The notes under the pieces: model-generated
Databases searched by the model: none
Told to the model about the DNA's origin: nothing
The model's input: only the letters and a program-made list of their open reading frames with translations
In this document: positions 18,821-39,029 of the stretch, piece after piece
Layout: each line of letters begins with the position of its first letter
Position numbering within the stretch: position 1 is the stretch's first letter
NCBI GenBank assembly: GCA_963697165.1
Contig: CAVOMX010000012.1
Location: 64,001-128,000, forward strand
Source of the DNA: Candidatus Bathyarchaeota archaeon
GTDB taxonomy: Archaea; Thermoproteota; Bathyarchaeia; Bathyarchaeales; Bathyarchaeaceae
Length of the DNA: 64,000 bases
Direction: 5' to 3'
Program-made: the position numbers and the translations under genes

Positions 18821-19620
18821 ATGGACAACTGGAGACTACTCAAACTCCAAACAGCAGACGCCTTCACAAACATGGCAGTCGACGAAGCAATAATGAAAGC
18901 AAGAATCGAAGACAGAGTACCCAACACCCTCAGACTCTACCAATGGAGGCCCTCAGCCGTTTCCATAGGACGCTTCCAAACCTTAGCAGACGAAATCCAC
19001 GTAGACAACTGCAAAAAACATGGCGTAGACATTGTAAGAAGAATCACAGGCGGCGGAGCCGTATACCACGACCAAAACGGAGAAATCACCTACAGCATAA
19101 TAGCCAAAACAAGTGACCTAGGACTGCAAAGACCTAGACATGCTCTCTGCATACCAGAAAATATGCAGCGGACTAAACGAAGCAGTCAAAATCCTCGGAA
19201 CCAAAGCCGAATATCGTCCACCAGACCCAAAACGGTGCCCAAACCTCACAATAAGCGGAAAAAAAATTTCCGGAAATGCCCAATCATCCAAAAAAGGCAT
19301 ACTGCTTCAGCATGGAACCTTTCTGTTAGACATAGACCACGAAAAAATGTTCACTTTCCTTAGGGTTCCTTGGGCAAAAACATTAGATGACGTGCTTGCA
19401 GTCTCAAAAAGAAAGTTGACCTCTGCAAGGCAAGAGCTTGATTCAAACTTTTCTAACCAAGAGGCCTACCGAGCATTAGTTAAAGGCTTTGAAAAAGCAC
19501 TAAATGTGCAGTTTGTGGAAGAAGAACTCACAGAATACGAACAAAAACTCGCCGAAAAATATAGAAAAGAAAGGTTTGTGACCGAGGAGTTGGACTTTCC
19601 TCGGTAAAGCATCAGTTTAG
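18821..19620 (+). CDS. Lipoate-protein ligase / octanoyltransferase catalytic domain (LplA/LipM-like); frameshifts ~19120 and ~19590
   Basis: NMAVDEAI, TLRLYQW, RRITGGGAVYHD, KKISGNAQ, LQHGT; no LplB C-terminal domain. Confidence 0.88.
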
Positions 19621-25143: not shown

Positions 25144-25818
25144 GTGAAACTCCAAAAAGTATGCATAATTGCTTTGTGTACACTACTTTTGACGTTAGCT
25201 TTTTCTGAGGTAGGCCACTCAGCCCCTGAAGAAGCACCGAGTGTATATTATCTAGAATATGGCGGTCTCAAAATAGACGTTAGAGCTCCTAGTCAATCAT
25301 ATCCAGGCGAGAACATAACAGTTACCGTGAAAGCAGAAGCGATAACCGAGATTTACGTCAAATACGTCCGCGTAACAATTTATGGTGCATTAAATGCTAC
25401 TGACAAGGTTACCTTACGGGATATCATTCACCTTGAAAATTATTCTTTCACTTCTTCCTCTGAAGTTCATGAAGTCCAGTACAACGTAACAATCCCCGAT
25501 AACATGTCTCCAGGATTAACCTATGGCGTAATAAGCAGTGAATGGGAACTCATGGGTTCGCCCCAAAAGATTCTCCCAGCAGGATTCGCTTTGACATACA
25601 TCAGAAACATGGACTTAGAACAGCTTCAAACAGAATATCAAGAACTAAACGCTACACACCAATCGTTGCTGCAAGAATACACAGAACTGAAATCAGGCAT
25701 AAACGAAGACTTGGATTCTACCCGAAACATGCTATACATCTTCGTTGCAACAACCGTTGTCGCCAGCATCACAGTTATTGTTCTGTTAATGAGAAAACCC
25801 AAAAAGATTTGGATTTAA
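25144..25818 (+). CDS. Hypothetical membrane-anchored surface protein
   Basis: Signal peptide, beta-rich Ig-like region, short coiled coil, C-terminal TM helix with basic tail RKPKK. Confidence 0.7.
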   Translation: MKLQKVCIIALCTLLLTLAFSEVGHSAPEEAPSVYYLEYGGLKIDVRAPSQSYPGENITVTVKAEAITEIYVKYVRVTIYGALNATDKVTLRDIIHLENYSFTSSSEVHEVQYNVTIPDNMSPGLTYGVISSEWELMGSPQKILPAGFALTYIRNMDLEQLQTEYQELNATHQSLLQEYTELKSGINEDLDSTRNMLYIFVATTVVASITVIVLLMRKPKKIWI

Positions 25819-26816
25819 AATCCCAAAACTTTTTTTGCTTCTTCAATCTCTTCAGGTAGCAGTTGCCTTGGATAATTATAGAGCGGACCGCCCGGGCTCT
25901 CGTTATAGTATGGTCTGTTGCATCCTGGACATCCTGAAGTAAGAAACGGCTTGCCTGTGTCTATGTCTTCTAGTAGCATTTCTTTAGAGATTCCAAAGCT
26001 TGTAAGATTCCCGTTCTTATCAAATTCCATGTTTTCGAAGCGTGCTTTTCTGTGGGTTAAAATGTAATGGGCAACTTGTGATCTCCGATAACTGCTTATG
26101 GATGGAGGAGACCTGTTTTCAAGAGCGGTTCCTGGAATTGGCGTAAAGGCGAACAAGCCTGGGTAGACTCCTGAATCAACGCACCATTGAATCTTTTGAC
26201 AAAGCTCCTTTTCTGTTTCTCCCAGACCCACAATAAGATGTGTGCTCACGGAGCCTTCCCCGAAGACATGGACAGCTTCCTTTAACGCTTCATGTTGTTT
26301 CTCCCAGTGGTAAGGTCCGCCAATGTTTTGTCCCTTAACGTTCCCGAATATCTTCTCTGTAGCCGCATCCAAGGCGATGCTTACTCGGTTAACGCCAGCG
26401 TCTACCCATTTCTTCATTTTCTGATTGCTTAGTGGCTTGCACGAAACAGAAATAGGCGCCGCGACTCTGGAGCTGATTTCCTTAACAAGAAACAAAACGT
26501 CATCAAAAGCCTCTGGATAATTTAGTGATTGAATGCAAACCCGCTTTATCGTCCCCGCTTTTACGTTTCTTTCTATTGCATCAACTATTTTTTTTGTCGG
26601 GAATGCTGGCCAAGTGACTCTGGAGAGCCTGTCTGCTCTGCCTTTGCTGTTTCTGGCTTGAGGGCAGAAGCCGCAGTTGGCGGAGCACTTTTCGTTTCGA
26701 CACATGAGCAGATATGCGGTTGTTGGTTTGGCATCTAGCTTGCCTCGTAACAAGCCTAATACAATTGCTGAGCCTGTAGAAACACGGACTCTTTCAGGGA
26801 AGCATGTGTCACTCAT
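25815..26816 (-). CDS. lipS2: Radical SAM lipoyl synthase LipS2 (biotin-synthase-like)
   Basis: CSANCGFC radical SAM motif and C-terminal TSGCPGCNRP matching the LipS2 TxGCPxC(N/D)RP motif. Confidence 0.82.
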   Translation of the reverse strand: MSDTCFPERVRVSTGSAIVLGLLRGKLDAKPTTAYLLMCRNEKCSANCGFCPQARNSKGRADRLSRVTWPAFPTKKIVDAIERNVKAGTIKRVCIQSLNYPEAFDDVLFLVKEISSRVAAPISVSCKPLSNQKMKKWVDAGVNRVSIALDAATEKIFGNVKGQNIGGPYHWEKQHEALKEAVHVFGEGSVSTHLIVGLGETEKELCQKIQWCVDSGVYPGLFAFTPIPGTALENRSPPSISSYRRSQVAHYILTHRKARFENMEFDKNGNLTSFGISKEMLLEDIDTGKPFLTSGCPGCNRPYYNESPGGPLYNYPRQLLPEEIEEAKKVLGF

Positions 26817-26960
26817 TTGACAACACCGAACATTTTTGGATTCTATATTGTAAATATTTGGCGCCTATATTTATCTCTACCAAACCTAAATCTTGGAAAA
26901 CAGAAACTTCTTATGAGCTTTACCCTTCTCTCTATTCTGGTAGTTCTTGGGGAATTGAAA

Positions 26961-27296
26961 ATGGCGGATGGTCCTCGTATAATACGAGAGAAAAAAACTG
27001 TTTCCGCGATGATACACCTTTACTGCCGTAAACATCACGGAACTCATGGCGATGAACTTTGTCCAGAATGTAATGAACTGCATGAGTATGCAATGCTGCG
27101 GCTGTCAAAATGTCCTTTCCAAGAAAACAAGTCAACTTGTGGCAAATGTTTAGTTCATTGCTACAAACCAGACATGAAAACGAAAATAGCTAAGGTTATG
27201 CACTATTCTGGACCCCGAATGTTGTTTCATCATCCTATTCTTGCGTTGCATCATGTCCTTGATGGAAGAAAAAAGCCTAAGCCACTAAAGAAATAG
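26961..27296 (+). CDS. YgbA-like ('nitrous oxide-stimulated promoter' family) Cys-rich protein
   Basis: REKKTV..MI.LYC..HH...LCPEC..L..YA..RL..CPF...K..C..C..HCY...MHYSGPRM. Confidence 0.85.
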   Translation: MADGPRIIREKKTVSAMIHLYCRKHHGTHGDELCPECNELHEYAMLRLSKCPFQENKSTCGKCLVHCYKPDMKTKIAKVMHYSGPRMLFHHPILALHHVLDGRKKPKPLKK

Positions 27297-27352
27297 GTCT
27301 ATTTGATGTTGTATTCAAAAGGTTTTTAGAAACCCAAGATGATTAAGCGAGT

Positions 27353-28343
27353 ATGACGAGCCTAGACGCTGAAAGCATATGGCGGATGCCAAAAAAGGAG
27401 CTAGTTTCATTAATTGAGAGTGGGGCTATTCCAAACAGGACAGGGAAGATTCGGTTCTATGCTCCAAGTTTTGTCTACTACAAAAACAAATATTTTGGTT
27501 CATCTCACGATGCTTTCCCTTCCATCTCAATCACGGGCTCCTCCTGTGCACTGAAATGCAAACACTGCAACGGAAAAGTGTTAGACACGATGGTTCCATC
27601 CCTGACTCCAGAAGGTCTCTTTGAGCTCTGTGCAAAACTGAAAAAAGATGGAGCAGTTGGCTGCCTCATAAGCGGAGGATGCCTTCCAGATGGTTCTGTT
27701 CCCATTGACAAGTTCATAGATGTTATCGCCCAGATAAAGAAGGAGCTGGGTCTAACTGTTGTTGTTCACACAGGGGTAATTGACTTTTCAACTGCAAAAC
27801 GGTTGAAGGCTGCTGGAGTTGACGCTGCGTTAATCGACATAATTGGCTCCGACGAAACTATCCGTGAAGTCTATCGTCTCGATGTTAGCGTTGAAGATTA
27901 TGAACGGTCACTACAAGCTTTTCATGAATCTGGAATTCCCTTTGTTCCACATGTGCTTGTGGGGCTACATTACGGTGAACTGAAGGGCGAACTTGAGGCA
28001 CTGAAAATGATATCGAAATATTCGCCTTCTGCGGTCATAACAATAGCTTTTATGCCTATCCGTGGGACGCCCATGGAAAACGTGAGTCCGCCTGAACCAG
28101 AAGATATTGCAAAAATTACTTGCTTCTGCCAAACTATTGATGCCAGAAACTCCACTTGTTTTGGGGTGCATGAGACCAAAAGGTGAGCATAGAAAAAGAA
28201 CTGACATGCTTGCTGTTAGAGCTGGCGTAAACGCAGTAGCCTTTCCTGTCGAGGAGGCAATCCAGCTTGCAGAATCCCTGAAGCTAGAAATCTCTTTTTC
28301 GCCTCTCTGCTGTTCCCAAATTTTTGAAGACATCAAGCCTTGA
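27353..28343 (+). CDS. lipS1: Radical SAM lipoyl synthase LipS1; frameshift ~28110
   Basis: SITG..CALKCKHC, LISGG, C-terminal LGCMRP and PLCCS matching LipS1 GC(M/A)R and CC motifs. Confidence 0.82.
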
Positions 28344-28398
28344 TTCATTCGAGGCAATCCGATACATTCTGGATTGTTTTAGCTAATGTACGATAACT

Positions 28399-28770
28399 TT
28401 AGGGGCGTACTTTTCTTTGTACAATCTTGTGTTTCTTAATTGCAAACTCTATTGCATGTGCCAAATCTTCTTTTGAAAGTGCCCCCACAATACCATTCAC
28501 GGGTCTTCCTCCACAAAAAAACAGGAATGTAGGCGTTCCCATCACACCATACTTGCCCGCAAGTTTCTCATTTTCGATGCTGTCTACAACATTAAGCTTA
28601 ATGAACTTCAGCTTATCTCCGTATTCTATGGCTAGTTCGTCGTAAACTGGTTTGATTGCCTGACAATGGGGACAAAATGGATGCCAGAACTGCACCACAA
28701 CCAACTGTTTTTCCTCTAAAATTCGTTCTTTCCAGTCTACCGCGTTTGCCTCTTCTATCTGCTCAAACAT
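28399..28770 (-). CDS. Thioredoxin-family protein (C-terminus possibly frameshifted)
   Basis: VVQFWHPFCPHC active site, GVMGTPTF cis-Pro motif. Confidence 0.88.
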   Translation of the reverse strand: MFEQIEEANAVDWKERILEEKQLVVVQFWHPFCPHCQAIKPVYDELAIEYGDKLKFIKLNVVDSIENEKLAGKYGVMGTPTFLFFCGGRPVNGIVGALSKEDLAHAIEFAIKKHKIVQRKVRP

Positions 28771-28935
28771 GACCTGCCGCCTAAATTTCTGTATCCCTTA
28801 TGAGAATAAGTCATTTTTGCTCAAACATTGCTTCTCTTTCATGCTTTACTGTTATGGTTTTTTCCTTGATTCGAATCGTTATGTTTTTAAGATAAACAGT
28901 TATCACAATACGGTAACTGATAGAGGTGGAAAATA

Positions 28936-29353
28936 ATGGTCAAGGTAGAAGACTATGACGTGCCTGAAAATCTGTGTTACCACAAAGAATACCTCTGGGC
29001 TAAAGTAGAAGATGGAAAAGTGAAGATCGGAATGATCGATTTCGCTCAGAAACAACTCCATGACATTGTATATGTTGAACTCCCAAGCATCGGTGACACC
29101 ATAACCCAGAGTGAACCCTTCGGAACTCTAGAATCCGTGAAAGCCGTCTCAGATTTAGTTGCTCCTGTAAGCGGTACCGTTGAAGCTGTAAACGAAGAAC
29201 TAGAATCCAAACCTGAGTTACTCAACGAAGACCCATATGGCGAAGGATGGATACTGATCGTAGCCCCGTCAAATCTAGATGCAGACCTGAAAAAGATCCT
29301 GAACTTCGAATGCAGCTGTAGAATGGCACAAAGAACTCGTAAAAGAGGGTTAA
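28936..29353 (+). CDS. gcvH: Glycine cleavage H-type lipoyl carrier protein; frameshift ~29310
   Basis: IGMIDFAQ, IVYVELP, LESVKAVSD (lipoyl-Lys), PELLNEDPYGEGW. Confidence 0.93.
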
Positions 29354-29448
29354 CTTAGTTTATAGGTAAGCACCTTTTAGGTTTCACTAGAGAAACCGGT
29401 GAGGTCTTAGTAGGGGTTAATCCAAAACACTTTATTTTTTAATAAAAG

Positions 29449-29667
29449 GTGGGCATCGAAGGCGCAGTAGTAACTGGGATAAATTATGTTATTCTCATGA
29501 AAAGCCTCGGCATCAAAGTATTGGGAGTGATATTAAACAAGGTTCACACCAGTTATCTGACCGCTGAAATCAGACAGTATATCAAATCTGCTTTCAGCAA
29601 TCTTGGCGTCGAGTTGCTTGGCATATTGCCTCGTATCCAATTGGATGGGCGAGGAGCAATTCCTTAA
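29449..29667 (+). pseudogene. Probable fragment of a CbiA/CobB-like (P-loop amidase family) gene
   Basis: KVLGVILNKV...LGVELLGILPR resembles the internal CbiA segment; no P-loop or N-terminus present. Confidence 0.4.
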
Positions 29668-29801
29668 ATCTTTAGTTGGCTGGTCATGTTTTCTTGATAA
29701 TGATATACAGTAATAAAATAAAATCACAGTAATTTTATTAGGAAGATTTTTTATCTGCGATGTAGACAATTAATGTGAATACAAATAGGCTGGAATCCAT
29801 A

Positions 29802-29995
29802 ATGGCCAAAATCCATAAACAAATAATTAAGTTACTACAAACCTCAGAAAAGCCATTAACCCTCGTTGAGCTTGCAGAACAACTCGAAACAACAGAAAAA
29901 AAGGTTTTCAATGCTTTAAAGAAACTCTTCTCGACGAAGAAATCAGTTGCGACGCCAAAACTCGTCAGTACTCTCTTGTAAAAAAGCAAAGCTAG
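29802..29995 (+). CDS. Small winged-HTH DNA-binding protein; frameshift ~29932
   Basis: IIKLLQTSEKPLTLVELAEQLETTEKKVFNALKKL helix-turn-helix; alternate frame gives wing EISCDAKTRQYSL. Confidence 0.65.
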
Positions 29996-30091
29996 ACCCT
30001 TTTTGTATCCATTTTTAATTTGAACTATCCGTTGAGAACAAGATTAATATGGAAACCAGTTCTTAGTTTGACAGCCAGAGTTGAGATTTAA

Positions 30092-31432
30092 ATGACCCGA
30101 AAAATCGTAATTATTGGAGCTCACGCTGCAGGTCTTGATGCGGCTTCTGCAGCCAGAAAAACTGATAGAACCGCTGAAATAACTCTTATAACAAAAGAGA
30201 ACAAAGCGGCATACTCCAGATGCGGTCTCCCCTTCGTTTTGGGTGGACACATAAAAACCTTTGATGACCTGGTGGTCTTTCCAGAAAGATTCTACAAAAT
30301 GATGAAACTAAACCTTCTAACAGAAACCACAGTAACAAACGTTGATGCAAAAGCAAAAACTGTCTCGATACAGGACAAAATCGGAAACAAGGACACTCTT
30401 TCATATGACAGTTTAGTGCTAGCCACCGGCGCTGACCCCTTCATGCCACCAATAAAGGGACGAGAAAAGAAGGGAATATTCGTAGTTCGAACAATAGAAG
30501 ACGGAGAAAAAATCAACAAAGCAATTGAAACAGCAAAATCAGCAGTCATTATAGGCGCAGGACTTATTGGTCTTGAAGTTGCCGTAGCATGCCTTGAACG
30601 AGGCCTAAAAACTACGGTTGTTGAATTTCTGCCATATGTTCTTCCAGTTTTGCTGGACAAAGCTATGGCTGATCACGTCCAGAAAGCGCTTGAAGAGAAA
30701 GGCATGAACATCATTGTCGGAAAAGGAGCAGAAGAATTCCTTGGAACCGACAAAGTTACCGGAGTTCTTGTTGCAGGAGAAACAATTCCAGCAGACGTGG
30801 TAGTTGTAGCCACTGGTGTAAGAGCCAACCTTGAATTGGCAAAAAATGCTGGAGTAGAACTTGGAAAACAGGGCATAAAAACCAACGTGAGAATGGAAAC
30901 CAACATCAAAGATGTTTACGCAGCTGGAGACTGCGCCGAGTCAATATACCTCGTCACTCGTAGACCTATGATGAGCCAGCTTGGAACCACTGCTGTGAGA
31001 CAAGCAAAAGTTGCAGGAATCAACGCTGCCGGAGGATACTCCACATTTACTGGAGCTTTAGGTTCGTGGATTACCCGATTATTTGACACTGAAATCGGTG
31101 GAACTGGACTTACAGAGTTCATGGCTGGACGATCCGGAATAGAAACGGTTTCGGCAACCATAGTTTCAAAAACAAGGGCTGACTACTTCCCCGGGGCATT
31201 ACCTGTCAAAGTCAAACTCGTTGCAGACAAGGAAACAGGTAAGCTAATTGGCGGTCAAATCATTGGAGGCGAAGAAGTAACCCAACGCATAAACGTCTTA
31301 TCCTTTGCTATACTAAACGAAATGACTATCCAAGAACTGGCGAAAGCTGAAACATGCTATGCACCTCCACTATCGGAAACTTGGGAGCCTATGATATTAG
31401 CTGCAGAAATGCTCTTGCGAAAACTCAAGTAA
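30092..31432 (+). CDS. FAD-dependent pyridine nucleotide-disulfide oxidoreductase, CoA-disulfide reductase/NADH oxidase family
   Basis: GAHAAG, single redox Cys AYSRCGLPF, GAGLIGLE, YAAGDC, C-terminal CYAPP. Confidence 0.88.
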   Translation: MTRKIVIIGAHAAGLDAASAARKTDRTAEITLITKENKAAYSRCGLPFVLGGHIKTFDDLVVFPERFYKMMKLNLLTETTVTNVDAKAKTVSIQDKIGNKDTLSYDSLVLATGADPFMPPIKGREKKGIFVVRTIEDGEKINKAIETAKSAVIIGAGLIGLEVAVACLERGLKTTVVEFLPYVLPVLLDKAMADHVQKALEEKGMNIIVGKGAEEFLGTDKVTGVLVAGETIPADVVVVATGVRANLELAKNAGVELGKQGIKTNVRMETNIKDVYAAGDCAESIYLVTRRPMMSQLGTTAVRQAKVAGINAAGGYSTFTGALGSWITRLFDTEIGGTGLTEFMAGRSGIETVSATIVSKTRADYFPGALPVKVKLVADKETGKLIGGQIIGGEEVTQRINVLSFAILNEMTIQELAKAETCYAPPLSETWEPMILAAEMLLRKLK

Positions 31433-31592
31433 CATCTCTGTGTGAGACGTTCTAAAACTGTAAGCCTAGCCTTTTAATTGACTAGGCACACCATCATCTC
31501 TTCTTTGATAAAACTTCAAATTTTTTGGCTGAAAAGAAAAGCTTTATTTGTCCGCTATACTTTAATCGAGTTTCTTGTAAACGGTGGTTCCT

Positions 31593-32537
31593 ATGGGAAA
31601 GGAAAAACTAAAGATCGCTTTTTATTGGGCGGCTAGTTGTGGAGGCTGCGAAGTAGCTGTTCTTGACGTCAACGAAAAAATCTTAGACGTCGTTGCAGCT
31701 GCTGACATTGTATTCTGGCCTGTAGCGATTGACATCAAATACAAAGATGTCGAAGCTATGCCAGACAAAAGCATAGACGCATGCTTCTTTAACGGCGCAA
31801 TAAGAACCGAAGAAAATGAAAAGATGGCGAAACTCCTAAGACAGAAATCAAAGATTCTTGTGGCCTTCGGCTCATGCGCCAACGATGGATGCGTAAAAGG
31901 TCTCGCGAATCTTTGGACCAAAGATGATGTCTTTGAGCGAGCATATCTTGAAACTCAATCAACTGTGAACCCTGAATCTGTTTTGCCTAAAACACGTGTC
32001 AACGTAAAAGAAGGCGAGCTTGAACTCCCTGAAATATATGACACTGTGAAAACCTTGCCCCAAACCGTGGATGTTGATTACACAATTTCTGGTTGTCCAC
32101 CTCCTATTCCTGCTATCCTAAACATGTTTACTGCATTCATAAGCGGAAACATTCCTCCAAAAGGTTCAAGCTTCTTGCCAAACAAGTCAGTTTGTGACGA
32201 GTGTCCGCGGGAGAAGAAGAACCGTGAACTAACTGAAATAAAAAGAATTTACGAAATTGATGACGATGGTGTAACTTGTTTCTGGGATCAAGGCGTAATT
32301 TGTATGGGTCCAGCTACTCGTGCAGGTTGCGGTTCCCAGTGCCCACTTGTTAACAAACCTTGCACTGGTTGTGGTGGTCCAGGTCCTCGGGTTATCGATC
32401 AAGGTGCTGCTGCAATTAGCGCTCTTGCTTCAATCGCTACCAATCCAGATGTTGTTAAACAGGTTGCGGATCCAATAGGAACTTTCTACACGTATTCGTT
32501 AGCTCACTCTATTCTTAGGAGGAAAGTAAAGAAATGA
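31593..32537 (+). CDS. mvhG: F420-non-reducing [NiFe] hydrogenase small subunit
   Basis: ASCGGCE, FGSCA, SGCPP, VCDECPR, CMGPATRAGC, PCTGC. Confidence 0.92.
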   Translation: MGKEKLKIAFYWAASCGGCEVAVLDVNEKILDVVAAADIVFWPVAIDIKYKDVEAMPDKSIDACFFNGAIRTEENEKMAKLLRQKSKILVAFGSCANDGCVKGLANLWTKDDVFERAYLETQSTVNPESVLPKTRVNVKEGELELPEIYDTVKTLPQTVDVDYTISGCPPPIPAILNMFTAFISGNIPPKGSSFLPNKSVCDECPREKKNRELTEIKRIYEIDDDGVTCFWDQGVICMGPATRAGCGSQCPLVNKPCTGCGGPGPRVIDQGAAAISALASIATNPDVVKQVADPIGTFYTYSLAHSILRRKVKK

Positions 32538-33988
32538 GAGAAATAGTAATAGATCCAGTAACACGACTAGAAGGACACGGAAAAATAACCATATTCCTAA
32601 ACGATGCTGGAAACGTTGAAAACGCATACTTCCAAGTTCCGGAACTACGCGGCTTTGAACGTTTCTGTGAAGGAAGAAAAGCTGAAGACCTGCCCATAAT
32701 AACAACCAGAATCTGTGGAGTCTGCCCAGTTGCTCACCATATGGCAGGAGCAAAAGCTGTAGACGCCGCATTCAATGCAGAACTAACAGAGCCAGCAAAA
32801 AACTGCGAGAACTCGAGTATTGTGGTTATTACATTTACGATCACATACTGCACTTCTACTTCTTGGGTGGCCCAGACTTTGTGGTAGGCCCAGACCGCTC
32901 CCGCCGCTAAACGTAACATTCTTGGAGTAATCGAAAAAGTCGGTTTGGACATTGCAGGAGAAGTCATAAAACACCGAGCTTATGGACAAAGGATTACTGG
33001 CATCATTGGAGGACGACCAACTCATCCTGTGAGTGCTCTTCCAGGAGGAATGGCTAAGGCAATAAACGAGGAAGAACGTCAAGATATCGAAGATATGCTC
33101 AAAAGCTGCCACGAATTCGCCAAGTTCAGCCTGAAAATCTTTGATGACATTGTTCTAAAAAATGCTGATTACGTGAACTTGATTACAAGTGACCCCTACA
33201 ACTTGGAGACCTACTACATGGGTACGGTTGACAAAAACAACAAGGTAAACTTCTACGACGGCAAAGTTCGTGTGGTCGATACACAAGGAAAAGAGTTCGT
33301 GAAATTTGGTCCTTCAGAATATTTGGACGTTATCGAAGAACATGTTGAACCTTGGACTTATGTAAAAATGCCTTACTTGAAGAAACTTGGTTGGAGAGGT
33401 CTTGTTGATGGACCTGAAACAAGTCTGTATCGGGTCGGTCCACTTGGAAGACTCAATGCCTCTGACGGTATGGCAACACCAGTCGCCCAAGCAGAATACG
33501 AGCGGATGTACAAGACTCTTGGCGGAAAACCTGTTCACGCTACTTTAGCTTTCCACTGGGCCAGATTGATTGAGCTTATGTATGCAACCGAAAGAGGTCT
33601 AGAATTGATCAAAGACAAAGACATAACTAGTAAAGACCTCAGAAGCGAACTTGGAAAACCTGGTGAAGGTGTTGGAATTGTTGAAGCTGCAAGAGGCACT
33701 CTTATTCACCATTACCAGTTGGATGAGAATGCTTTGGCAAAGAAAGTCAACCTCATAGTGGCTACAACCCATAACGCACCAGGCATCTGCATGTCCATAA
33801 AGAATGCTGCACAAGGCATTATCAAAAATGGCGTAATCAACGATGGCTTGCTAAACATGGTTGAGATGGCCTTCAGAGCCTACGACCCATGCTGGGCTTG
33901 CGCTACACACTTCGCCATCGGTGAGATGCCTCTAGAGGTTAACATCTTCAATAGCAACCAAAAACTGCTAAAGACCATCAGAAGATGA
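32534..33988 (+). CDS. mvhA: Group 3c [NiFe] hydrogenase large subunit; two frameshifts (~32800, ~32896)
   Basis: [11 protein letters not shown]1 [22 protein letters not shown]2 [12 protein letters not shown] with C-terminal extension. Confidence 0.93.
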
Positions 33989-33999
33989 GCGAATGAACC

Positions 34000-36425
34000 A
34001 TGGAACAACCTAAAGTCGGAGTATTCTTATCTGACTGCGGAAATCAACTCTCTGATATCCTAGACTTCGATGCTCTTACAAACTTCGTGAGGGTCTGTCC
34101 CGAACGTAGCTCTCATAGCAAAAGGCAGCGAGTTCTGGCGAGGCAACGGATTACAGGTTATCGTGGATGCAGTAAAAAGCGGAAAGATCAATCGTGTCGT
34201 TGTTGCTGAGAATCTTCCGAAACTGAGTGAAGTAAACATAGCTCAGGCAGTTGAAGACGCAGGTTTAAATTCATACTTGGTTGAGGTAATTGATCTTAAG
34301 GACCACTGTGCGTGGCCCCACAGGGCAACACCTAACGAAGCCACTGAAAAAGCTAAAGCCATGCTTTTGTCTGCAATTGAACGTGCCAAACTTCTTGAGC
34401 CTATCGAGAAACTTGAGTTTCCAACTCTAAAATCTGCCTTGATTATCGGCGGTGGCATCGCTGGTATGCAAGCTGCTGTGGATTTGGCAGATTTAGGTTT
34501 TGAAGTGAATCTGCTTGAGAAAGCGCCATTTCTTGGCGGTTTGGCTGCTCGAGCTGGACGGTTCTTCCCAACAGACGACTGTGCCATCTGTATTCAGTCT
34601 CCCTCTTCTGACGTTGAAGACTATTACTCATACTTCTAGAAAGTGTGTATATCGTTCTGGTTTCAGCGAAATTTCAAACCTAAACATATTAACAAACTCT
34701 AAAGTTGTGAGTGTTGAGGGCGTTCCCGGAAACTATAAGGTTACAATCGAAAAGAAGCCACGGTATGTTAAAGCGGATAAATGTGTAGTCTGTGACAAAT
34801 GTGCGACTGTTTGTCCTGTGGAAACTCCTGACGAATACAATGCGAACCTGAATAACCGCAAAGCAATTTACTTGAACGTTCCCACTGTTCACCCACAAGT
34901 CTACGTTATTGACGAGGATGCCTGCAAGTTCCACGAATGCGCCAAATGTGTTGAAGTTTGTCCAACAAACGCTATTGATTTGGATCAGAAAACTGAGCAG
35001 ATAACCTCTGAATGTGGGCAGCATCGTTGTTGCTACGGGATTCAAGGAATTTGATTCCAGCGCCATAAAAGAGTATCATTACGACGATTACCCTGACGTT
35101 GTAACTAACCTTGAATTAGCTAGAATGATTGACGGTTTTGGTCCAACAGGCGGCGCTATTGTCCGACCTTCAGACGGCAAACCTGCCAAGAAAATCGTTT
35201 TTATTCAATGTGCTGGTTCGCGAGACAGGCGATATAATCCGTATTGTTCAAGCATCTGCTGTATGATTTCTTTGAAAAACGCGTCTTTGGTTAAAGAGGC
35301 TAATCCCGACGTAGACAGTTTCTATCTGTTACATTGACATCCGAACCACCGGAAGAGAACACGAATACTACTATGAACGAGCCAGAGATATGGGCATTAA
35401 GTTCGTTAAAGGACGTCCAACTGAAATCTATAACGACGAAGAAAAAGGCAAATTAATTGTCGATGTTGAGGATGCACTTCTTAAACGATTCTTGGATTTA
35501 GAAGCTGATTTAGTTGTGTTAGCTACTGCTATGGTGCCTGCTGAAGGAACTAAAGAACTTGCCGAAATGCTAGATCTTGACTTAGAACAGGATTGTTTTT
35601 TCAAGGAATACAACGCCAAACTTAGACCTACCGAAACTAAGCAAAAGGGAATTTACCTCTGTGGAGGAGCAACTTTCCCGAAAGATGCACCAACAGCTTC
35701 TTTGCATGCTCACTCTGCAGCTTTGAAAGCTGCAAAGTTTCTAACTAATGGCAAACTAGTGAAAGACCTCAGGACTGCTGAAATCAATGAAGAATATTGT
35801 GGTGATTGTGAATTCTGTCCAGTAACCTGTCCATATGGTGCCATAAGTTTGGAACCTACAACAGGAGACCACTTTGTTGCCCGCGTAAACGACATAAAAT
35901 GTGAAGGATGTGGTGTTTGTGTTGGGACTTGTCCATTGAATGCTATCGAGCTTAGGCACTCAAGACCAAGCCAGATGGCAGCACAGATGAATGCACTCCT
36001 ATCAATTAATGGAACCTCAAAACCTCTTGTTCTAGCAATCTGCTGCCAAGAATGTGGACACACAGCTGTTGACTCTTCTGGTATGGCTAAACTGCAGTAT
36101 CCCGCCAACGTGCGAATCATCAAGGTTCCATGTGCTGGAATTGTGCGCGTTAACCAGATTCTGGAAGCCTTCAAAGCTGGCGCCCAAGGCGTTATGATTG
36201 TGGGCTGCAAGACTGATGGCTGTCACTATGAGGTTGGTAGTGATAAGGCTGAAAAGAAGATGGATCTTGCCAAGATATTGCTCAAGGAATACGGTATAGA
36301 GCCAGAACGGTTAGAGATGTTCAAGATGGTGTTCATTGAAGGTGCTCAATTCGCAGAAGCTGCTAAGATGATGACCGAACGTGTAACTAAACTGGGTCCA
36401 ATGAAACTATTGGAAGGCATTCTGA
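34000..36425 (+). CDS. hdrA: Heterodisulfide reductase subunit A fused to C-terminal MvhD; several frameshifts
   Basis: IGGGIAG, FPTDDCAIC, inserted ferredoxin domain, QCAGSRD..YCSSICCM..LK, C-terminal ferredoxin, then MvhD motifs CCQEC, VPCAG, GC..DGCHY, GIEPERL. Confidence 0.9.
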
Positions 36426-36439
36426 GGAGGCTAATTGTA

Positions 36440-36957
36440 ATGACACATCATAATATGAAAAGAACTGCAAACATGTCATTCTCTGATGAGGTTACAAGCC
36501 GTCATGGCGGCGAAACCTTGACTGCATGCTACCAATGTGGAACATGCGCTAGCAGCTGTCCAGTAGCCAGACTTGATTCTAGCTTCAATCCACGAGAAAT
36601 CATTAAACTATCTCTCTTAGGCAAAAAAGAAGAAGTGATTTCAGGAGACTCCATTTGGTTGTGCACTTCATGCTTCAACTGCCAAGAACGATGCCCCCAA
36701 GACGTTGAGATAGCCGACGTAATCTATGCACTAAGGAACATTGCTCTGGAAGCCGGTACATTCACCAAACATCTATTCCGATTTTGCATCTGCACTCATT
36801 GCTGACGGACGAATTGTTGCGATTTCCAAGTTCGTCGAAAAGAAACGCGAAGAATACGGTTTACCTGCCCCTTAAAACGCTGGACATTGCAGCAATCAAT
36901 ACGATTCTTTCTTCAACGGACTTTACTAAACCAGAAAAGACGGAGGTAGTCACAATG
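36440..36957 (+). CDS. hdrC: Heterodisulfide reductase subunit C; frameshifted, 3' end uncertain
   Basis: CYQCGTCASSCP, WLCTSCFNCQERCPQ; GAGGAGG upstream of ATG 36440. Confidence 0.88.
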
Positions 36958-37830
36958 AAAAGCTACGCAATATTTCTTGGATGCACTATACCTGCACGTC
37001 AACCAAACTATGAATTGTCAGCACGAAAAACTCTTGCTAAGCTAGGAGTAAACCTTGTAGACTTGGATGGTTTTACTTGTTGTTGTCCTCCACCCATACA
37101 ATCGATAAATCTGGAAAGCAGCCAAGCCATAGCTGCCTACAACATCTGCTTAGCTGAAGAAGCTGGTCTGGATATTGTTGCATTGTGTAATGGGTGCTTC
37201 GAATCTCTTGCAATGGTTAACGCTGCTCTCAAGAAAGACAAGAAACTAAAGGCAGAGATTAACGACACCTTAGCTAAAGTCGGTAAAGAGTTCAAGGGCA
37301 CTATCAAAGTGAAACATTTCCTGCAGGTCTTGATGGACGATATTGGACTTGAAAAAATCAAAGAAAACGTCGTTAAGCCATTAAGCAACCTGAAAGTAGC
37401 ACCATTCTATGGCTGCCACTCTCTTAGACCGAGCAAACTGCTACAGTTAGACGATCCTGAGCGACCACAAATCTTCGAAAACTTGTTAGAGGCTCTGGGC
37501 GCAGAAAGTGTTGAGTACCGAAACAAGTTGAAGTGCTGTGGTGGTCTGCTGAAAGGCATTTCTGATGATACCGCACTTAGCCTAGCTAGAGAAAAATTAG
37601 TAAACACAAGCAAGGCAGGCGCTGACTGCATCAGTACTCTTTGTCCATTCTGCTTCGTTGCCTTGGATATAGGACAAATCCAAGTGAAATCGAAATTCAA
37701 TGAAGTCTACGATATGCCAATACTTCACTACTCAGAACTTCTTGCTTTGGCTCTGGGTGTAGATCCAGAGGAGTTGGCACTTAGAAGCCACAAGGTAAAG
37801 ACCGACAAGATTCTCGAAAAAATCGCATAA
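36955..37830 (+). CDS. hdrB: Heterodisulfide reductase subunit B
   Basis: FLGC, TCCCP, LCNGC, YGCH..RP, KCCGG, LCPFC (two CCG domains); GGAGGT upstream. Confidence 0.92.
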   Translation: MKSYAIFLGCTIPARQPNYELSARKTLAKLGVNLVDLDGFTCCCPPPIQSINLESSQAIAAYNICLAEEAGLDIVALCNGCFESLAMVNAALKKDKKLKAEINDTLAKVGKEFKGTIKVKHFLQVLMDDIGLEKIKENVVKPLSNLKVAPFYGCHSLRPSKLLQLDDPERPQIFENLLEALGAESVEYRNKLKCCGGLLKGISDDTALSLAREKLVNTSKAGADCISTLCPFCFVALDIGQIQVKSKFNEVYDMPILHYSELLALALGVDPEELALRSHKVKTDKILEKIA

Positions 37831-38968: not shown

Positions 38969-38991
38969 ACTGAGACTACAAAAACCTCAAA

Positions 38992-39012
38992 TCCCCCCTT
39001 TTCCTTTTTTTT
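38992..39012 (+). terminator. Putative archaeal oligo-T terminator after gap
   Basis: CCCCCCTTTTCCTTTTTTTT shortly after the stop codon. Confidence 0.4.
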
Positions 39013-39029
39013 AAATTAAGGTGAATAAT

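What the first reader, a model, noticed from the sequence alone, without database searches (positions are those of the whole stretch)
25815..37830. Lipoyl-carrier assembly genes next to a hydrogenase-heterodisulfide reductase: candidate lipoate-linked Mvh/Hdr system
Seen: lipS2, lipS1, thioredoxin, gcvH (intact lipoyl Lys), a CoADR-like flavoprotein, then mvhG-mvhA-hdrA/mvhD-hdrC-hdrB within 12 kb. A lipoate ligase lies at 18.8 kb, and no gcvP/gcvT/lpd, 2-oxoacid dehydrogenase or mcr genes are in the window. Established: LipS1/LipS2 lipoylate GcvH-type proteins in Thermococcus kodakarensis. In sulfur oxidisers the same assembly genes and GcvH-like LbpA cluster with the sHdr complex. Canonical MvhAGD-HdrABC reduces CoM-S-S-CoB. 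Inference: in this probably non-methanogenic archaeon the disulfide handled by HdrB could be protein-bound lipoamide. H2 would then yield dihydrolipoyl-GcvH for reductive glycine synthesis or NAD(P)H exchange, or the reverse. I know of no description of this for a true Mvh-coupled Hdr.
Basis: partly seen in the sequence, partly recalled or inferred. Interest (0 to 1): 0.75.

Follow-up and report, generated by a model that had tools for sequence, protein, structure and literature searches.

The report
Lipoyl-protein genes beside hydrogenase-Hdr operon
An uncultured Bathyarchaeon that has lost glycine cleavage still keeps a lipoic-acid carrier protein and a partner flavoenzyme, and these genes lie next to a hydrogenase/heterodisulfide-reductase operon, so the carrier is a plausible but unproven substrate of that enzyme.

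Summary
The genes are there as described. About ten single-base insertions split lplA, lipS1, the gcvH tail, mvhA, hdrA and hdrC. Relatives and short-read contigs lack these bases, so they look like assembly errors.

The organism is a Bathyarchaeon. Its genus has no GcvP or GcvT (0 of 25 genomes each). The genome shows no E2, McrA, ComA or other lipoyl domain. GcvH is therefore an orphan lipoyl protein.

The conserved unit is a tight gcvH–CoADR-like pair: 20 of 23 informative Bathyarchaeia loci, usually followed by gap-pgk. The mvhGA-hdrA/mvhD-hdrCB operon is a variable insertion specific to this genus. Outside the genus it was linked to the pair in 0 of 33 sampled genomes; one further record has it divergently adjacent (L053).

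A paralogous CoADR2–GcvH2 pair sits inside another Hdr supercluster in three genera.

So a lipoyl-GcvH/NAD(P)H couple is well supported by synteny (about 0.7). Electron flow to HdrB is plausible (about 0.4) but unproven.

The idea was printed in 2022 for Culexarchaeia (PMC9723716), and this scan has noted the theme in at least 13 other genomes.

The parts
18821..19607 (+). Lipoate-protein ligase large subunit (LplA type), split by one frameshift (ORFs 18821-19363 and 19140-19607)
   Evidence: Pfam LplA-B_cat, 88 and 62 bits. NCBIfam NF053750, 112 and 69.5 bits, below the cut-off of 480. The lplA...gcvH block is conserved in relatives.
25815..26816 (-). LipS2 radical-SAM lipoyl synthase subunit
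   Evidence: NCBIfam NF053743, 361.4 bits against a cut-off of 270. Pfam Radical_SAM.
26817..27296 (+). YgbA_NO family small cysteine-rich protein, between lipS2 and lipS1. Present in only some genus members.
   Evidence: Pfam PF11756, 146 bits. NF007714, 132.9 against 88. Found in L005, L009, L036, L038 and L041; no match in L003 or L010.
27353..28343 (+). LipS1 radical-SAM lipoyl synthase subunit; the 3' end is frameshifted in this assembly
   Evidence: The ORF 27353-28186 ends early. The intact 329-aa G001 orthologue scores 249.7 against 230 on NF053742.
28399..28770 (-). Thioredoxin-fold protein (CPHC), divergent from gcvH; present in some genus members only
   Evidence: Pfam Thioredoxin, 84 bits. 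TIGR01068, 73.7 bits, below the cut-off of 96.8. Seen in L009, L036, L038 and L041; no match in L003, L005 or L010.
28936..29353 (+). GcvH1: GcvH-type lipoyl carrier with the lipoyl lysine in an E-S-V-K-A loop. One extra base at 29309 shifts the last ~18 codons.
   Evidence: TIGR00527, 130.8 against 115.85. Alignment A2. The true C-terminus is read in another frame. Short-read contigs leave out one base at 29309.
29802..29978 (+). 59-codon ORF with a weak winged-helix (PF0610-like_N) match. It lies in a ~350-nt stretch conserved directly upstream of the CoADR-like gene within the genus. Candidate regulator.
   Evidence: Pfam, 28 bits, below the cut-off of 33. blastn conservation in 11 relatives' loci, including L004 where gcvH is 51 kb away. 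Coordinates.
30092..31432 (+). CoADR/Nox-family FAD-dependent pyridine-nucleotide disulfide oxidoreductase (CoADR1) with invariant Cys44. Candidate NAD(P)H:lipoyl-GcvH oxidoreductase.
   Evidence: Pfam. TIGR03385, 368 bits, below the cut-off of 578.8. Best solved relatives are NADH oxidases and CoA-disulfide reductases. Invariant C44 in A1. gcvH lies directly upstream in 20 of 23 informative Bathyarchaeia loci.
31584..32537 (+). MvhG/VhuG-type [NiFe]-hydrogenase small subunit
   Evidence: Pfam Oxidored_q6. NF045875 VhuG, 221 bits, below the cut-off of 450.
32534..33988 (+). MvhA/VhuA-type [NiFe]-hydrogenase large subunit. A one-base deletion at 32796 and a one-base insertion at 32895 put ~33 codons out of frame in this assembly.
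   Evidence: Pfam NiFeSe_Hases on both pieces. The intact 485-aa G001 orthologue scores 411.8 bits on VhuA, below the cut-off of 800. Indels. One base is left out at 32895 in contigs. The R-x-C-G-x-C and D-P-C-x-x-C motifs are read.
34000..36424 (+). HdrA fused to MvhD (HdrA2-type architecture). Four single-base insertions in this assembly (34091, 34614, 35008, 35316). No stop before hdrC in the window, although G001 has one.
   Evidence: Pfam FAD/Fer4 pieces and FlpD, 137.6 bits. The intact 806-aa G001 protein scores 789.5 bits on NF040770 HdrA2, below the cut-off of 1100. Indels. Junction.
36440..36950 (+). HdrC (two [4Fe-4S] motifs); insertions at 36757 and 36867 in this assembly
   Evidence: Pfam Fer4_8 and Fer4_17. 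The G001 171-aa HdrC scores 115.4 bits on TIGR03290, below the cut-off of 160. Indels.
36955..37830 (+). HdrB with two complete CCG motifs (10 invariant cysteines). It is the only HdrB locus found in this assembly.
   Evidence: Pfam CCG x2. TIGR03288, 344.0 against a cut-off of 345.15. E = 5e-84 to HdrB of solved Mvh-Hdr complexes. Invariant cysteines in A3.
37958..40256 (+). gap (GAPDH, 37958-38968) and pgk (39021-40256). They are the ancestral downstream neighbours of the gcvH-CoADR pair.
   Evidence: Pfam. The order gcvH-CoADR-gap-pgk is seen in other families.

Best explanation
The locus is a composite built around a protein-bound lipoate redox carrier.

Shown by sequence and family scores:
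- LplA, LipS1 and LipS2 can make lipoyl-GcvH1.
- GcvH1 is the only lipoylatable protein detected in this genome.

Inferred from conserved gene pairing (my odds about 0.7):
- The CoADR/Nox-family flavoprotein next to gcvH exchanges electrons between NAD(P)H and the lipoyl disulfide of GcvH1. That makes it a non-canonical 'L protein'.
- In sister lineages this H/L pair probably still serves glycine cleavage.
- In this genus the P and T proteins are gone and the pair has been kept.

Inferred from neighbourhood only (my odds about 0.4):
- In this genus the mvhGA-hdrA/mvhD-hdrC-hdrB operon, inserted right behind the CoADR-like gene, uses lipoyl-GcvH1 as the disulfide handled at HdrB, in place of CoM-S-S-CoB.
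- The chain would be H2 <-> MvhAG -> MvhD/HdrA (flavin-based bifurcation with ferredoxin) -> HdrC -> HdrB <-> lipoyl-GcvH1 <-> CoADR-like (or the class-I Lpd-type enzyme on contig C11) <-> NAD(P)H.
- The lipoamide couple is at -290 mV (Cao 2018 passage). That is near NAD(P)H and far below CoM-S-S-CoB, about -140 mV by my recall. The net reaction would therefore resemble that of NAD- and ferredoxin-dependent bifurcating or confurcating hydrogenases. It would run easily toward H2 formation at low H2.
- The co-directional gap-pgk genes could use or supply the NAD(P)H.
For: Lipoate assembly and carrier:
- LipS2, LipS1 and GcvH pass their NCBIfam cut-offs. The lipoyl lysine is present.

Orphan status:
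- No GcvP, GcvT, E2 or Biotin_lipoyl domain in the genome.
- GcvP over cut-off and GcvT are each found in 0 of 25 genomes of the genus, against 14 of 16 and 13 of 16 in the other families of the order. GcvT is found in 4 of 5 genomes of sister genera.
- GcvH1 is nevertheless kept at 73-86% identity in 21 of 25 genus genomes.

The pair:
- gcvH1 lies directly upstream of the CoADR-like gene in 9 of 12 loci of other families and in 20 of 23 informative Bathyarchaeia loci.
- Only 2 of the 56 loci with more distant CoADR homologues have a GcvH-like neighbour.
- A paralogous pair in the reverse order, CoADR2-GcvH2, is adjacent in G112, G156, G232 and G408.
- In G030-G033, G035, G037 and G038 the best TIGR01350 hit is this CoADR-like gene.
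- G032 and G039 have P and T but only GcvH1 as H protein.

Link to Hdr:
- Eight of the 14 genus genomes that hold both GcvH1 and the HdrB orthologue have them 7-10 kb apart.
- A different family has mvhG-mvhA-hdrA/D-hdrC-hdrB divergently adjacent to gcvH1-CoADR, about 260 nt apart (L053).
- G013 and G018 carry CoADR2-GcvH2 and HdrB2-HdrC2 directly in front of mvhG.
- CoADR2-GcvH2 lies between an FrhB/HdrA/MvhD operon and HdrB2C2 in G112 and G408.
- G035 has hdrC-hdrB-gcvH-like-osmC-lipS2-lipS1-lpl(AB)-GG-reductase-like as one co-directional string beside hdrA/mvhD and mvhA.
- No McrA or ComA was found, and there is only one HdrB locus in the genome.
- Loh et al. 2021 state that the disulfide of the Hdr in a non-methanogenic Bathyarchaeon 'remains unclear'.
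- Cao et al. 2018 note a dihydrolipoamide dehydrogenase gene tightly linked to hdr clusters in sulfur-oxidising archaea.
Against: - The linkage is not conserved. Outside the genus the Mvh-type HdrB orthologue and the CoADR gene were on different contigs in 25 genomes and 311-657 kb apart in 3. CoADR2 was unlinked to it in 5 of 5. That is 0 of 33.
- Within the genus, 7 genomes lack the hdr genes at this site. G005, G010, G014, G016, G019 and G024 keep gcvH1-CoADR-mvhGA. G006 keeps only gcvH1-CoADR-gap-pgk.
- In G003 gcvH1 is 51 kb from CoADR-mvh-hdr.
- gcvH1 is not in the mvh-hdr operon. It is 734 nt and a small ORF away from the CoADR-like gene, which is a further 152 nt from mvhG.
- GcvH1 is of the ordinary GcvH type. 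It does not have the E-T-G-K-W loop of the copies embedded in Hdr clusters. It also lacks the conserved cysteines that Cao 2018 describe for LbpA.
- HdrB is close to methanogen HdrB. Nothing here shows an altered pocket.
- With a -290 mV acceptor, H2-driven ferredoxin reduction is barely exergonic (my calculation from textbook potentials).
- Four GcvT-positive relatives (G025, G026, G028, G036) show neither a TIGR01350 hit at E<=1e-30 nor, for the three that were sampled, the CoADR gene. The 'L protein' reading is therefore not universal.
- Related genomes are not independent samples.
Confidence: 0.4

Rival explanations
1. There are two unrelated modules that merely lie side by side. gcvH1, the CoADR-like gene and the lipoate assembly genes form an NAD(P)H-driven lipoyl redox couple. 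Ancestrally these were the H and L proteins of glycine cleavage. In this genus the couple is kept for another job, such as a thiol/peroxide relay through thioredoxin-, AhpD- or OsmC-type proteins, or NADH/NADPH exchange together with the class-I Lpd-type enzyme. Mvh-HdrA/D-HdrCB, inserted between the CoADR-like gene and gap in this genus, reduces some other, still unknown disulfide.
For: - The pair is near-universal in the order without any Hdr beside it, and is usually followed by gap-pgk.
- The mvh-hdr content at the site varies: full, mvhGA only, or none.
- Linkage outside the genus was seen in 0 of 33 genomes.
- The transcription units are separate.
- HdrB is close to the canonical type.
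- OsmC-like and AhpD-like (CMD) genes sit next to GcvH-like genes in relatives (L018, L019), and a thioredoxin sits next to gcvH1 here.
- Lipoyl-dependent peroxidase systems are an established kind (Lpd-DlaT-AhpD-AhpC of mycobacteria; Ohr/OsmC). I recall these; I did not read them here.
- A class-I Lpd-type gene is present in 22 of 25 genus genomes, against 3 of 16 elsewhere.
Against: - Three independent juxtapositions of a CoADR/GcvH pair with Mvh-Hdr or HdrBC genes (this genus; L053; the CoADR2-GcvH2 supercluster in three genera) are more than I would expect from random placement in 1.5-2 Mb genomes.
- No alternative disulfide is known.
- The thioredoxin and ygbA genes are not conserved at the locus.
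Confidence: 0.35
2. The CoADR-like flavoprotein is itself the NAD(P)H module of the hydrogenase. A CoADR-MvhGA unit would be an NAD(P)-linked hydrogenase, or would feed Hdr directly. GcvH1 would be a bystander inherited from the older gcvH-CoADR gene pair.
For: - CoADR-mvhG-mvhA stay together in every genus genome that has mvh. This includes G003, where gcvH1 is 51 kb away, and the six genomes without hdr at the site.
- The conserved upstream stretch with the small ORF travels with the CoADR-like gene.
Against: - Across the class the CoADR-like gene occurs without any adjacent hydrogenase but with gcvH1.
- There is no iron-sulfur domain in the CoADR-like protein that could wire it to MvhG (Pfam).
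- A 152-nt gap separates it from mvhG.
Confidence: 0.1
3. It is an sHdr-like sulfur system. GcvH1 carries sulfane sulfur, the Hdr oxidises or reduces it, and the CoADR-like enzyme acts as a CoA-persulfide or polysulfide reductase.
For: - sHdr-LbpA with LipS1/LipS2 and a dedicated ligase is the established precedent (PMC6067878 and PMC10332631; passages read).
- Solved relatives of the flavoprotein include a CoA-persulfide reductase (8a56).
Against: - No second HdrCB pair, no LbpA-type cysteines, and no rhodanese domain on the flavoprotein. I did not search the window specifically for DsrE, TusA or rhodanese families. None appeared among the 25 ORFs scanned.
- The Hdr carries MvhD and a hydrogenase.
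- Elemental sulfur inhibits the cultured relative Ca. Bathyarchaeum tardum.
Confidence: 0.05
4. GcvH1 and the lipoylation genes are a decaying remnant of the lost glycine cleavage system and have no present function. The frameshifts would be real.
For: P and T were lost in the genus. This assembly shows many frameshifts.
Against: - The same genes are intact in relatives.
- The extra bases are absent from short-read contigs of four runs.
- GcvH1 is kept in 21 of 25 genus genomes together with lipS1 and lipS2.
- Unrelated genes in the window (a P-type ATPase, the H+-PPase N-terminus) are split too.
Confidence: 0.05

Closest known systems
sHdr-LbpA sulfur-oxidising heterodisulfide-reductase-like system, with its sLpl(AB)/LipS1/LipS2 lipoate assembly (Cao et al. 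2018, PMC6067878; Tanabe et al. 2023, PMC10332631; passages read)
   Same: - A GcvH-family lipoyl protein and LipS1/LipS2-type lipoyl synthases encoded near HdrB, HdrC and HdrA homologues in an organism without CoM-S-S-CoB.
- A disulfide-reductase flavoprotein gene nearby. Cao et al. note an Lpd gene linked to hdr clusters in sulfur-oxidising archaea.
   Different: - The carrier here is GcvH-type, not LbpA-type.
- There is one HdrCB pair, not two.
- HdrA is fused to MvhD and sits behind a [NiFe] hydrogenase.
- The organism is an anaerobe. No sulfur-transferase genes were seen among the ORFs scanned.
- The genes are neighbours, not one cluster.
MvhAGD-HdrABC of hydrogenotrophic methanogens (solved complexes 5ODC, 7BKB, 8RVU)
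   Same: - All subunit types are present.
- HdrB has both CCG motifs and matches solved HdrB at E = 5e-84.
- MvhA has both [NiFe] cysteine motifs.
   Different: - No Mcr or ComA in the genome.
- MvhD is fused to HdrA (HdrA2-like).
- All subunits score below the NCBIfam equivalog cut-offs. HdrB misses by only 1 bit.
Ehe hydrogenase-HdrBC-GcvH cluster of Culexarchaeia (Kohtz et al. 2022, PMC9723716; passages read)
   Same: A published proposal that GcvH supplies the disulfide for HdrB in a non-methanogenic archaeon that lacks CoM and CoB, beside a [NiFe] hydrogenase.
   Different: - There the hydrogenase is membrane-bound (group 4) and gcvH lies inside the cluster.
- Here it is a soluble Mvh type, and gcvH is paired with a CoADR-like flavoprotein.
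- A relative (G037, L019) has an arrangement like the Culexarchaeia one.
Glycine cleavage H and L proteins
   Same: - GcvH1 passes the GcvH equivalog model.
- In relatives with P and T it is the only H protein (G032, G039).
- A pyridine-nucleotide disulfide oxidoreductase is encoded next to it.
   Different: - P and T are missing from the whole genus.
- The neighbouring flavoprotein belongs to the single-cysteine CoADR/Nox group, not to class-I Lpd (TIGR01350, 134 bits against a cut-off of 408.8).
HdrA2B2C2 of Methanosarcina acetivorans (NCBIfam NF040770; Yan et al. 2017, seen only as a reference)
   Same: HdrA carrying a C-terminal MvhD domain. This is the best NCBIfam match of the HdrA here (789.5 bits).
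   Different: The score is below the cut-off of 1100. Here the genes follow mvhGA. The electron donor of the Methanosarcina enzyme is F420H2, not H2 (recalled).

Membership tests
LipS1/LipS2 lipoyl synthase pair | Both radical-SAM subunits score above the NCBIfam equivalog cut-offs | tested here: met
   LipS2 from the window scores 361.4 against 270. LipS1 was scored on the intact G001 orthologue (85% identical) at 249.7 against 230, because the window copy is truncated by a frameshift.
Glycine cleavage system | H protein with a lipoyl lysine | tested here: met
   TIGR00527, 130.8 against 115.85. The lysine is in the E-S-V-K-A loop.
Glycine cleavage system | P protein (GDC-P) and T protein (GCV_T) present in the genome | tested here: not met
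   No match in the 81%-complete genome. P over cut-off and T are each found in 0 of 25 genus genomes, two of them single-contig.
Glycine cleavage system | L protein (dihydrolipoyl dehydrogenase) | tested here: inconclusive
   A class-I gene on contig C11 is split by a frameshift. Its two pieces score 497 and 232 bits on NF004947 (cut-off 592), but 222 bits on TIGR01350 (cut-off 408.8).
sHdr-LbpA system | LbpA-type carrier: two conserved cysteines that GcvH lacks (Cao et al. 2018) | tested here: not met
   GcvH1 orthologues have no conserved cysteine (A2, A5). The window copy has one non-conserved Cys14. Cao et al. exempt some archaeal LbpAs from this rule. The label 'LbpA-like' for the E-[ST]-G-K-W loop comes from an earlier scan note and was not checked against true LbpA sequences.
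sHdr-LbpA system | Two HdrC/HdrB pairs and an sHdrA without MvhD or a hydrogenase (as I recall the shdrC1B1AHC2B2 order) | tested here: not met
   There is one HdrB locus in the genome. HdrA is fused to MvhD and follows mvhGA.
sHdr-LbpA system | Dedicated ligase and LipT-type FAD oxidoreductase in the cluster | tested here: inconclusive
   LplA lies 9 kb upstream of gcvH. No GG-reductase-like gene is among the 25 window ORFs scanned. Relatives L017 and L018 have an Lpl(AB)-DUF116 fusion plus a GG-reductase-like gene.
Methanogenic MvhAGD-HdrABC | All six subunit types; HdrB with two CX31-39CCX35-36CXXC motifs | tested here: met
   Pfam and NCBIfam matches for MvhG, MvhA, HdrA, MvhD (fused), HdrC and HdrB. 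Ten invariant cysteines at C10, C42, C43, C78, C81, C154, C194, C195, C230 and C233.
Methanogenic MvhAGD-HdrABC | Scores above the equivalog cut-offs for the CoB-CoM enzyme | tested here: not met
   HdrB 344.0 against 345.15; HdrC 115.4 against 160; HdrA2 789.5 against 1100; VhuA 411.8 against 800; VhuG 221.3 against 450.
Methanogenic MvhAGD-HdrABC | Substrate context: Mcr and CoM biosynthesis present | tested here: not met
   McrA (PF02249) and ComA (PF02679) were not found. CoB biosynthesis was not searched. The genome is 81% complete.
Methanogenic MvhAGD-HdrABC | HdrB residues that bind CoM and CoB | not tested
   I did not have the list of pocket residues from a source I could read. Only overall similarity was measured.
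CoA-disulfide reductase | Equivalog score and active-site cysteine | tested here: not met
   TIGR03385, 368 against 578.8; NF007123, 335 against 458. The single N-terminal cysteine (C44) is invariant. The protein is therefore a member of the CoADR/Nox/Npx group but not a CoADR by score.

The most novel reading that the evidence does not exclude
A soluble hydrogenase that bifurcates or confurcates electrons, in which protein-bound lipoate replaces CoM-S-S-CoB.

- MvhAG-HdrA/MvhD-HdrCB would couple H2 and ferredoxin to the lipoyl disulfide of an orphan GcvH.
- A CoADR-family flavoprotein, a new kind of 'L protein', would pass those electrons to or from NAD(P).
- This would be an archaeal analogue of the NAD- and ferredoxin-dependent HydABC-type hydrogenases, built from methanogen and glycine-cleavage parts.
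- It would be wired next to the NAD(P)H-using gap-pgk genes.
- A paralogous CoADR2-GcvH2 pair would do the same for an F420-linked Hdr.
Probability: 0.3. Interest if true: 0.85.

Novelty: new variant of a known kind. Interest (0 to 1): 0.5.

Why it matters
- Many non-methanogenic archaea (Bathyarchaeia, Asgard and others) encode Mvh-Hdr but cannot make CoM or CoB, and the disulfide they use is an open question (PMC7886697). A protein-bound lipoate would give a concrete candidate that can be purified.
- This genus is a clean test case. It has lost every known lipoate-dependent enzyme but keeps the carrier, its assembly genes and two candidate reductases. It also has a cultured relative.
- The conserved gcvH–CoADR-like pair is a testable candidate for a non-canonical L protein in Bathyarchaeia. 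I found no paper on this in my searches.
- The general idea is not new. It is published for Culexarchaeia, established for sHdr-LbpA, and noted repeatedly by this scan.

Tried and rejected
- Complex prediction of HdrB with GcvH1 (alignments A3 and A5) gave no verdict (score 0.00 in both runs; controls not run). It says nothing either way.
- Rfam scan of 24000-41000 found no family.
- The sigma-70 promoter and terminator scan of 28300-32000 found no more than shuffles give, and it is not suited to archaeal promoters.
- Earlier notes near this place: none.
- Selenocysteine or another genetic code as the cause of the in-frame stop in mvhA: rejected. The stop lies in a stretch put out of frame by a one-base deletion at 32796 and a one-base insertion at 32895 relative to G001.
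- hdrA and mvhA as pseudogenes: rejected in favour of assembly errors.
- RNA run X18: its contigs (88-95% alike) lie on gcvH, the CoADR-like gene, mvhG, mvhA and hdrC/B. Contigs of relatives in an RNA library show neither transcription of this locus nor co-transcription.
- The sequencing-run shares were all 0.23 or less. I draw no habitat or strain conclusion from them.
- The second GcvH-like gene (contig C6) as another lipoyl carrier: rejected, because it has no lysine.
- Co-occurrence of the HdrB orthologue with the CoADR gene across the class: not informative, since both are concentrated in the same order.
- The B. tardum paper and its one held supplement have no word on Hdr, Mvh, glycine cleavage or lipoate.
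- HdrB pocket comparison: not done, for lack of a readable residue list.

Full report
WHAT IS IN THE WINDOW

| Gene | Place | Evidence |
|---|---|---|
| lplA, large-subunit type | 18821-19607 | |
| lipS2 | 25815-26816(-) | NF053743, 361 against 270 |
| ygbA-family gene | 26817-27296 | |
| lipS1 | 27353-~28343 | intact G001 orthologue, 250 against 230 |
| thioredoxin | 28399-28770(-) | |
| gcvH | 28936-~29353 | TIGR00527, 130.8 against 115.85 |
| CoADR/Nox-family flavoprotein | 30092-31432 | TIGR03385, 368, below 578.8, so not a CoADR by score |
| mvhG | 31584-32537 | |
| mvhA | 32534-33988 | |
| hdrA fused to mvhD | 34000-~36424 | |
| hdrC | ~36440-36950 | |
| hdrB | 36955-37830 | |
| gap | 37958-38968 | |
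| pgk | 39021-40256 | |

HdrB has ten invariant cysteines in two CCG motifs. It matches HdrB of solved Mvh-Hdr complexes at E = 5e-84. Its score on the CoB-CoM HdrB equivalog is 344.0 against a cut-off of 345.15.

FRAMESHIFTS

Many genes are split here. A base-by-base comparison with the intact locus of a genus member (G001, L003) shows:
- a single-base deletion at 32796;
- single-base insertions at 32895, 34091, 34614, 35008, 35316, 36757 and 36867;
- none of these lies in a homopolymer.

Short-read contigs from four public runs, 88-99% alike, leave out one base at 29309, 32895, 34614, 35008, 35318, 36757 and 36947. Unrelated genes in the window (a P-type ATPase, lplA) are split as well. I read these as consensus errors of this assembly, not as gene decay. 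The six-frame family searches used below do not depend on intact frames.

WHOSE GENOME

A scan of named genomes with an alignment of the flavoprotein (A1) returned Bathyarchaeia MAGs as the closest records. Among them is the complete genome of Ca. Bathyarchaeum tardum (CP122380.1, locus L042; flavoprotein 72% identical). By gene order the window belongs with that group.

IS GcvH EXPLAINED BY GLYCINE CLEAVAGE?

No.
- The 81%-complete genome has no GcvP, GcvT, E2, Biotin_lipoyl domain, McrA or ComA.
- GcvP over cut-off and GcvT are each found in 0 of 25 genomes of the genus. Two of those genomes are single-contig and more than ten are at least 92% complete.
- In the other families of the order they are found in 14 of 16 and 13 of 16 genomes. 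GcvT is found in 4 of 5 genomes of sister genera.
- GcvH1 is kept in 21 of 25 genus genomes at 73-86% identity, with lipS1, lipS2 and lplA beside it.
- The only other GcvH-like gene of this genome lacks the lysine and heads a NuoE/F/G-like operon.

GcvH1 is therefore the only lipoylatable protein I could find.

A class-I dihydrolipoyl-dehydrogenase-type gene exists on contig C11. It is present in 22 of 25 genus genomes but in only 3 of 16 genomes of other families.

WHAT GcvH1 TRAVELS WITH

The conserved partner is the CoADR-like gene.
- In other families of the order, gcvH1 is directly followed by it in 9 of 12 fetched loci, often with fewer than 15 nt between them.
- Among 80 loci from named genomes, 24 had the flavoprotein at 57% identity or more. 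One of these starts at a contig end. Of the other 23:
  - 20 have gcvH1 directly upstream;
  - 1 has a weaker GcvH-like gene;
  - 2 have none.
- Of the 56 loci with more distant homologues (methanogen Nox types, bacteria), only 2 have a GcvH-like neighbour.
- gap-pgk usually follows the pair. gap-pgk-CoADR-like also occurs in a Hodarchaeaceae, a Hadesarchaea and an unnamed archaeal MAG (L062, L064, L089).
- A second, paralogous pair in the reverse order (CoADR2, 52% identical; GcvH2, 42%) is adjacent in G112, G156, G232 and G408.
- In several relatives that have P and T, the best hit to the Lpd model is this CoADR-like gene. In G032 and G039 GcvH1 is the only H protein.

My reading is that the pair is ancestrally the H protein plus a non-canonical L protein. 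Four GcvT-positive genomes have neither enzyme type at my thresholds, so this is not proven.

HOW Mvh-Hdr RELATES TO THE PAIR

Within the genus, the mvh-hdr block sits between the CoADR-like gene and gap. Its content varies.
- Eight of the 14 genomes that hold both GcvH1 and the HdrB orthologue have them 7-10 kb apart (G000, G001, G002, G009, G011, G017, G020, G023).
- In G003, CoADR-mvh-hdr stays together but gcvH1 is 51 kb away.
- G004, G015 and G021 are too fragmented to tell.
- G013 and G018 have gcvH1 elsewhere. In front of mvhG they carry CoADR2-GcvH2 and, convergent on them, HdrB2-HdrC2.
- Seven genomes lack the HdrB orthologue:
  - five have gcvH1-CoADR-mvhG-mvhA-gap-pgk;
  - one has the same with 5 kb inserted;
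  - one (G006) has no mvh at all.

In a 401-genome sample of the class, the flavoprotein is found in 192 genomes and the HdrB orthologue in 52. Outside the genus:
- 25 genomes have the two on different contigs;
- 3 have them 311-657 kb apart;
- CoADR2 is unlinked to it in 5 of 5.

That is 0 of 33 linked. One named MAG of another lineage (L053) has the whole mvhG-to-hdrB operon divergently adjacent to gcvH1-CoADR.

INDEPENDENT HINTS FROM RELATIVES

- CoADR2-GcvH2 lies between an FrhB/HdrA/MvhD operon and HdrB2-HdrC2 in G112 and G408, and also in G013 and G018. That covers three genera.
- G035 has hdrC-hdrB-gcvH-like-osmC-like-lipS2-lipS1-lpl(AB)-GG-reductase-like in one direction, beside hdrA/mvhD and mvhA.
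- G025 has a similar set with two HdrCB pairs.
- G037 has a group-4 hydrogenase with an embedded CCG protein, GcvH-like genes, an AhpD-like gene and Hdr-Mvh. This resembles the Culexarchaeia Ehe cluster.
- The GcvH copies embedded in Hdr clusters have an E-T-G-K-W loop or lack the lysine. GcvH1 has the ordinary E-S-V-K-A loop.

MECHANISM AND ODDS

Shown:
- the parts lists;
- the loss of P and T;
- the conserved pairing;
- the variable insertion.

Inferred:
- Electron exchange between NAD(P)H and lipoyl-GcvH1 through the CoADR-like enzyme, about 0.7.
- Use of lipoyl-GcvH1 by HdrB, about 0.4.

For the second inference speak the orphan status of GcvH1, the single HdrB in the genome, the absence of CoM/CoB markers, and at least three separate juxtapositions of CoADR/GcvH pairs with Hdr genes. 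Random placement in 1.5-2 Mb genomes would rarely give that. This is my rough estimate, and related genomes are not independent samples.

Against it speak the lack of conserved linkage, the genus members without hdr at the site, the separate transcription units, the ordinary type of both GcvH1 and HdrB, and thermodynamics. With lipoamide at -290 mV, H2-driven ferredoxin reduction is nearly isoenergetic, so the chain would work more readily toward H2. That fits the report that H2 is not used by, and inhibits, Ca. B. tardum. However, that organism's locus lacks hdr (L042).

The main rival, at 0.35, is that the two modules are only neighbours.

WHAT IS KNOWN

- sHdr-LbpA with LipS1/LipS2 is established in sulfur oxidisers (PMC6067878 and PMC10332631; passages read).
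- Kohtz et al. 2022 proposed GcvH as the disulfide carrier for HdrB in Culexarchaeia (PMC9723716; passages read).
- Loh et al. 2021 call the disulfide of the Hdr in a non-methanogenic Bathyarchaeon unclear (PMC7886697; passages read).
- The B. tardum paper and its one held supplement do not mention Hdr, Mvh, glycine cleavage or lipoate.
- Searches for GcvH with Bathyarchaeia, with HdrB, or with CoADR/NADH oxidase found no paper that describes the gcvH-CoADR pair or its link to Mvh-Hdr. The library holds open-access papers and preprints only.
- This scan has already noted GcvH/LbpA-like genes beside Hdr or hydrogenase genes 14 times in at least 13 genomes.

VERDICT

New here:
- the class-wide gcvH-CoADR-like pair;
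- the loss of P and T across the genus while the carrier is retained;
- the paralogous pair inside an Hdr supercluster.

Interest 0.5.

Noticed in passing
G000 contig C6, locus L121:9560-10096 (+), with the genes after it to ~14214: A GcvH-like protein of 179 aa without the lipoyl lysine. It has a two-cysteine insertion and an N-terminal extension. It heads a NuoE-like/NuoF-like/ferredoxin/NuoG-like operon, and a PhoU/MazE-domain gene lies divergent from it. It resembles the lysine-less GcvH-like regulators noted earlier in the scan.
   Followed up: partly
window 26817-27296 (+): A YgbA_NO ('nitrous oxide-stimulated promoter') family cysteine-rich protein sits between lipS2 and lipS1. It is present there in some genus members only. 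Its function is unknown.
   Followed up: partly
L018 (G035:C72) 4053-11624: One co-directional string: hdrC, hdrB, a 78-aa ORF, a GcvH-like gene with an E-T-G-K-W loop, an OsmC-like gene, lipS2, lipS1, an Lpl(AB)-DUF116 fusion and a geranylgeranyl-reductase-like FAD protein. It lies next to hdrA/mvhD and a [NiFe] large subunit. This is the tightest Hdr-lipoate cluster I saw.
   Followed up: partly
L019 (G037:C4) 193-17819: A group-4 [NiFe] hydrogenase module with a CCG (HdrB-like) protein between its subunits. It is followed by two lysine-less GcvH-like genes with N-terminal extensions, an AhpD-like (CMD) gene, a GltD/NfnB-like flavoprotein, MvhD, a 1009-aa HdrA, MvhD, HdrC, HdrB, MvhG and MvhA.
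   Followed up: partly
L122 (G112:C13) 4978-19671 and L123 (G408:C1): A supercluster. An FrhB-like gene, three HdrA-like genes, two MvhD genes, ferredoxins and an NAD-binding/DHODB-type protein lie on one strand. The CoADR2-GcvH2 pair is next to them, with HdrB2-HdrC2 convergent on it. gcvH1/lipS1/lipS2 lie about 12 kb away. In G408 gap-pgk is adjacent.
   Followed up: partly
L062, L064, L089 (named MAGs of Hodarchaeaceae, Hadesarchaea and an unnamed archaeon): gap-pgk is directly followed by a CoADR-like gene (42-46% identical), with no gcvH. The association of this flavoprotein with gap-pgk therefore reaches beyond Bathyarchaeia.
   Followed up: no
window 21762-24604 (+), 19630-21653 (-) and elsewhere: Genes unrelated to the finding (a P-type ATPase, the N-terminus of the H+-pyrophosphatase) are also split. 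Roughly one single-base error per 1-2 kb would explain this. It may also depress the 81% completeness estimate.
   Followed up: partly
window ~36417-36440: In this assembly no stop codon separates the MvhD domain of HdrA from HdrC. G001 has a TGA there. This is either a real three-way fusion or another local indel error.
   Followed up: partly
G000 contig C11, locus L124:1095-2591 (+): A tetraether lipid synthase Tes (NF045702, 506.7 against a cut-off of 450) lies next to the class-I Lpd-type gene.
   Followed up: no
L033 (G040:C1) ~8986-10752: gcvH1 and the CoADR-like gene lie in one frame, separated by a single TGA. One search reports an open frame of 606 aa with 1 TGA.
   Followed up: no
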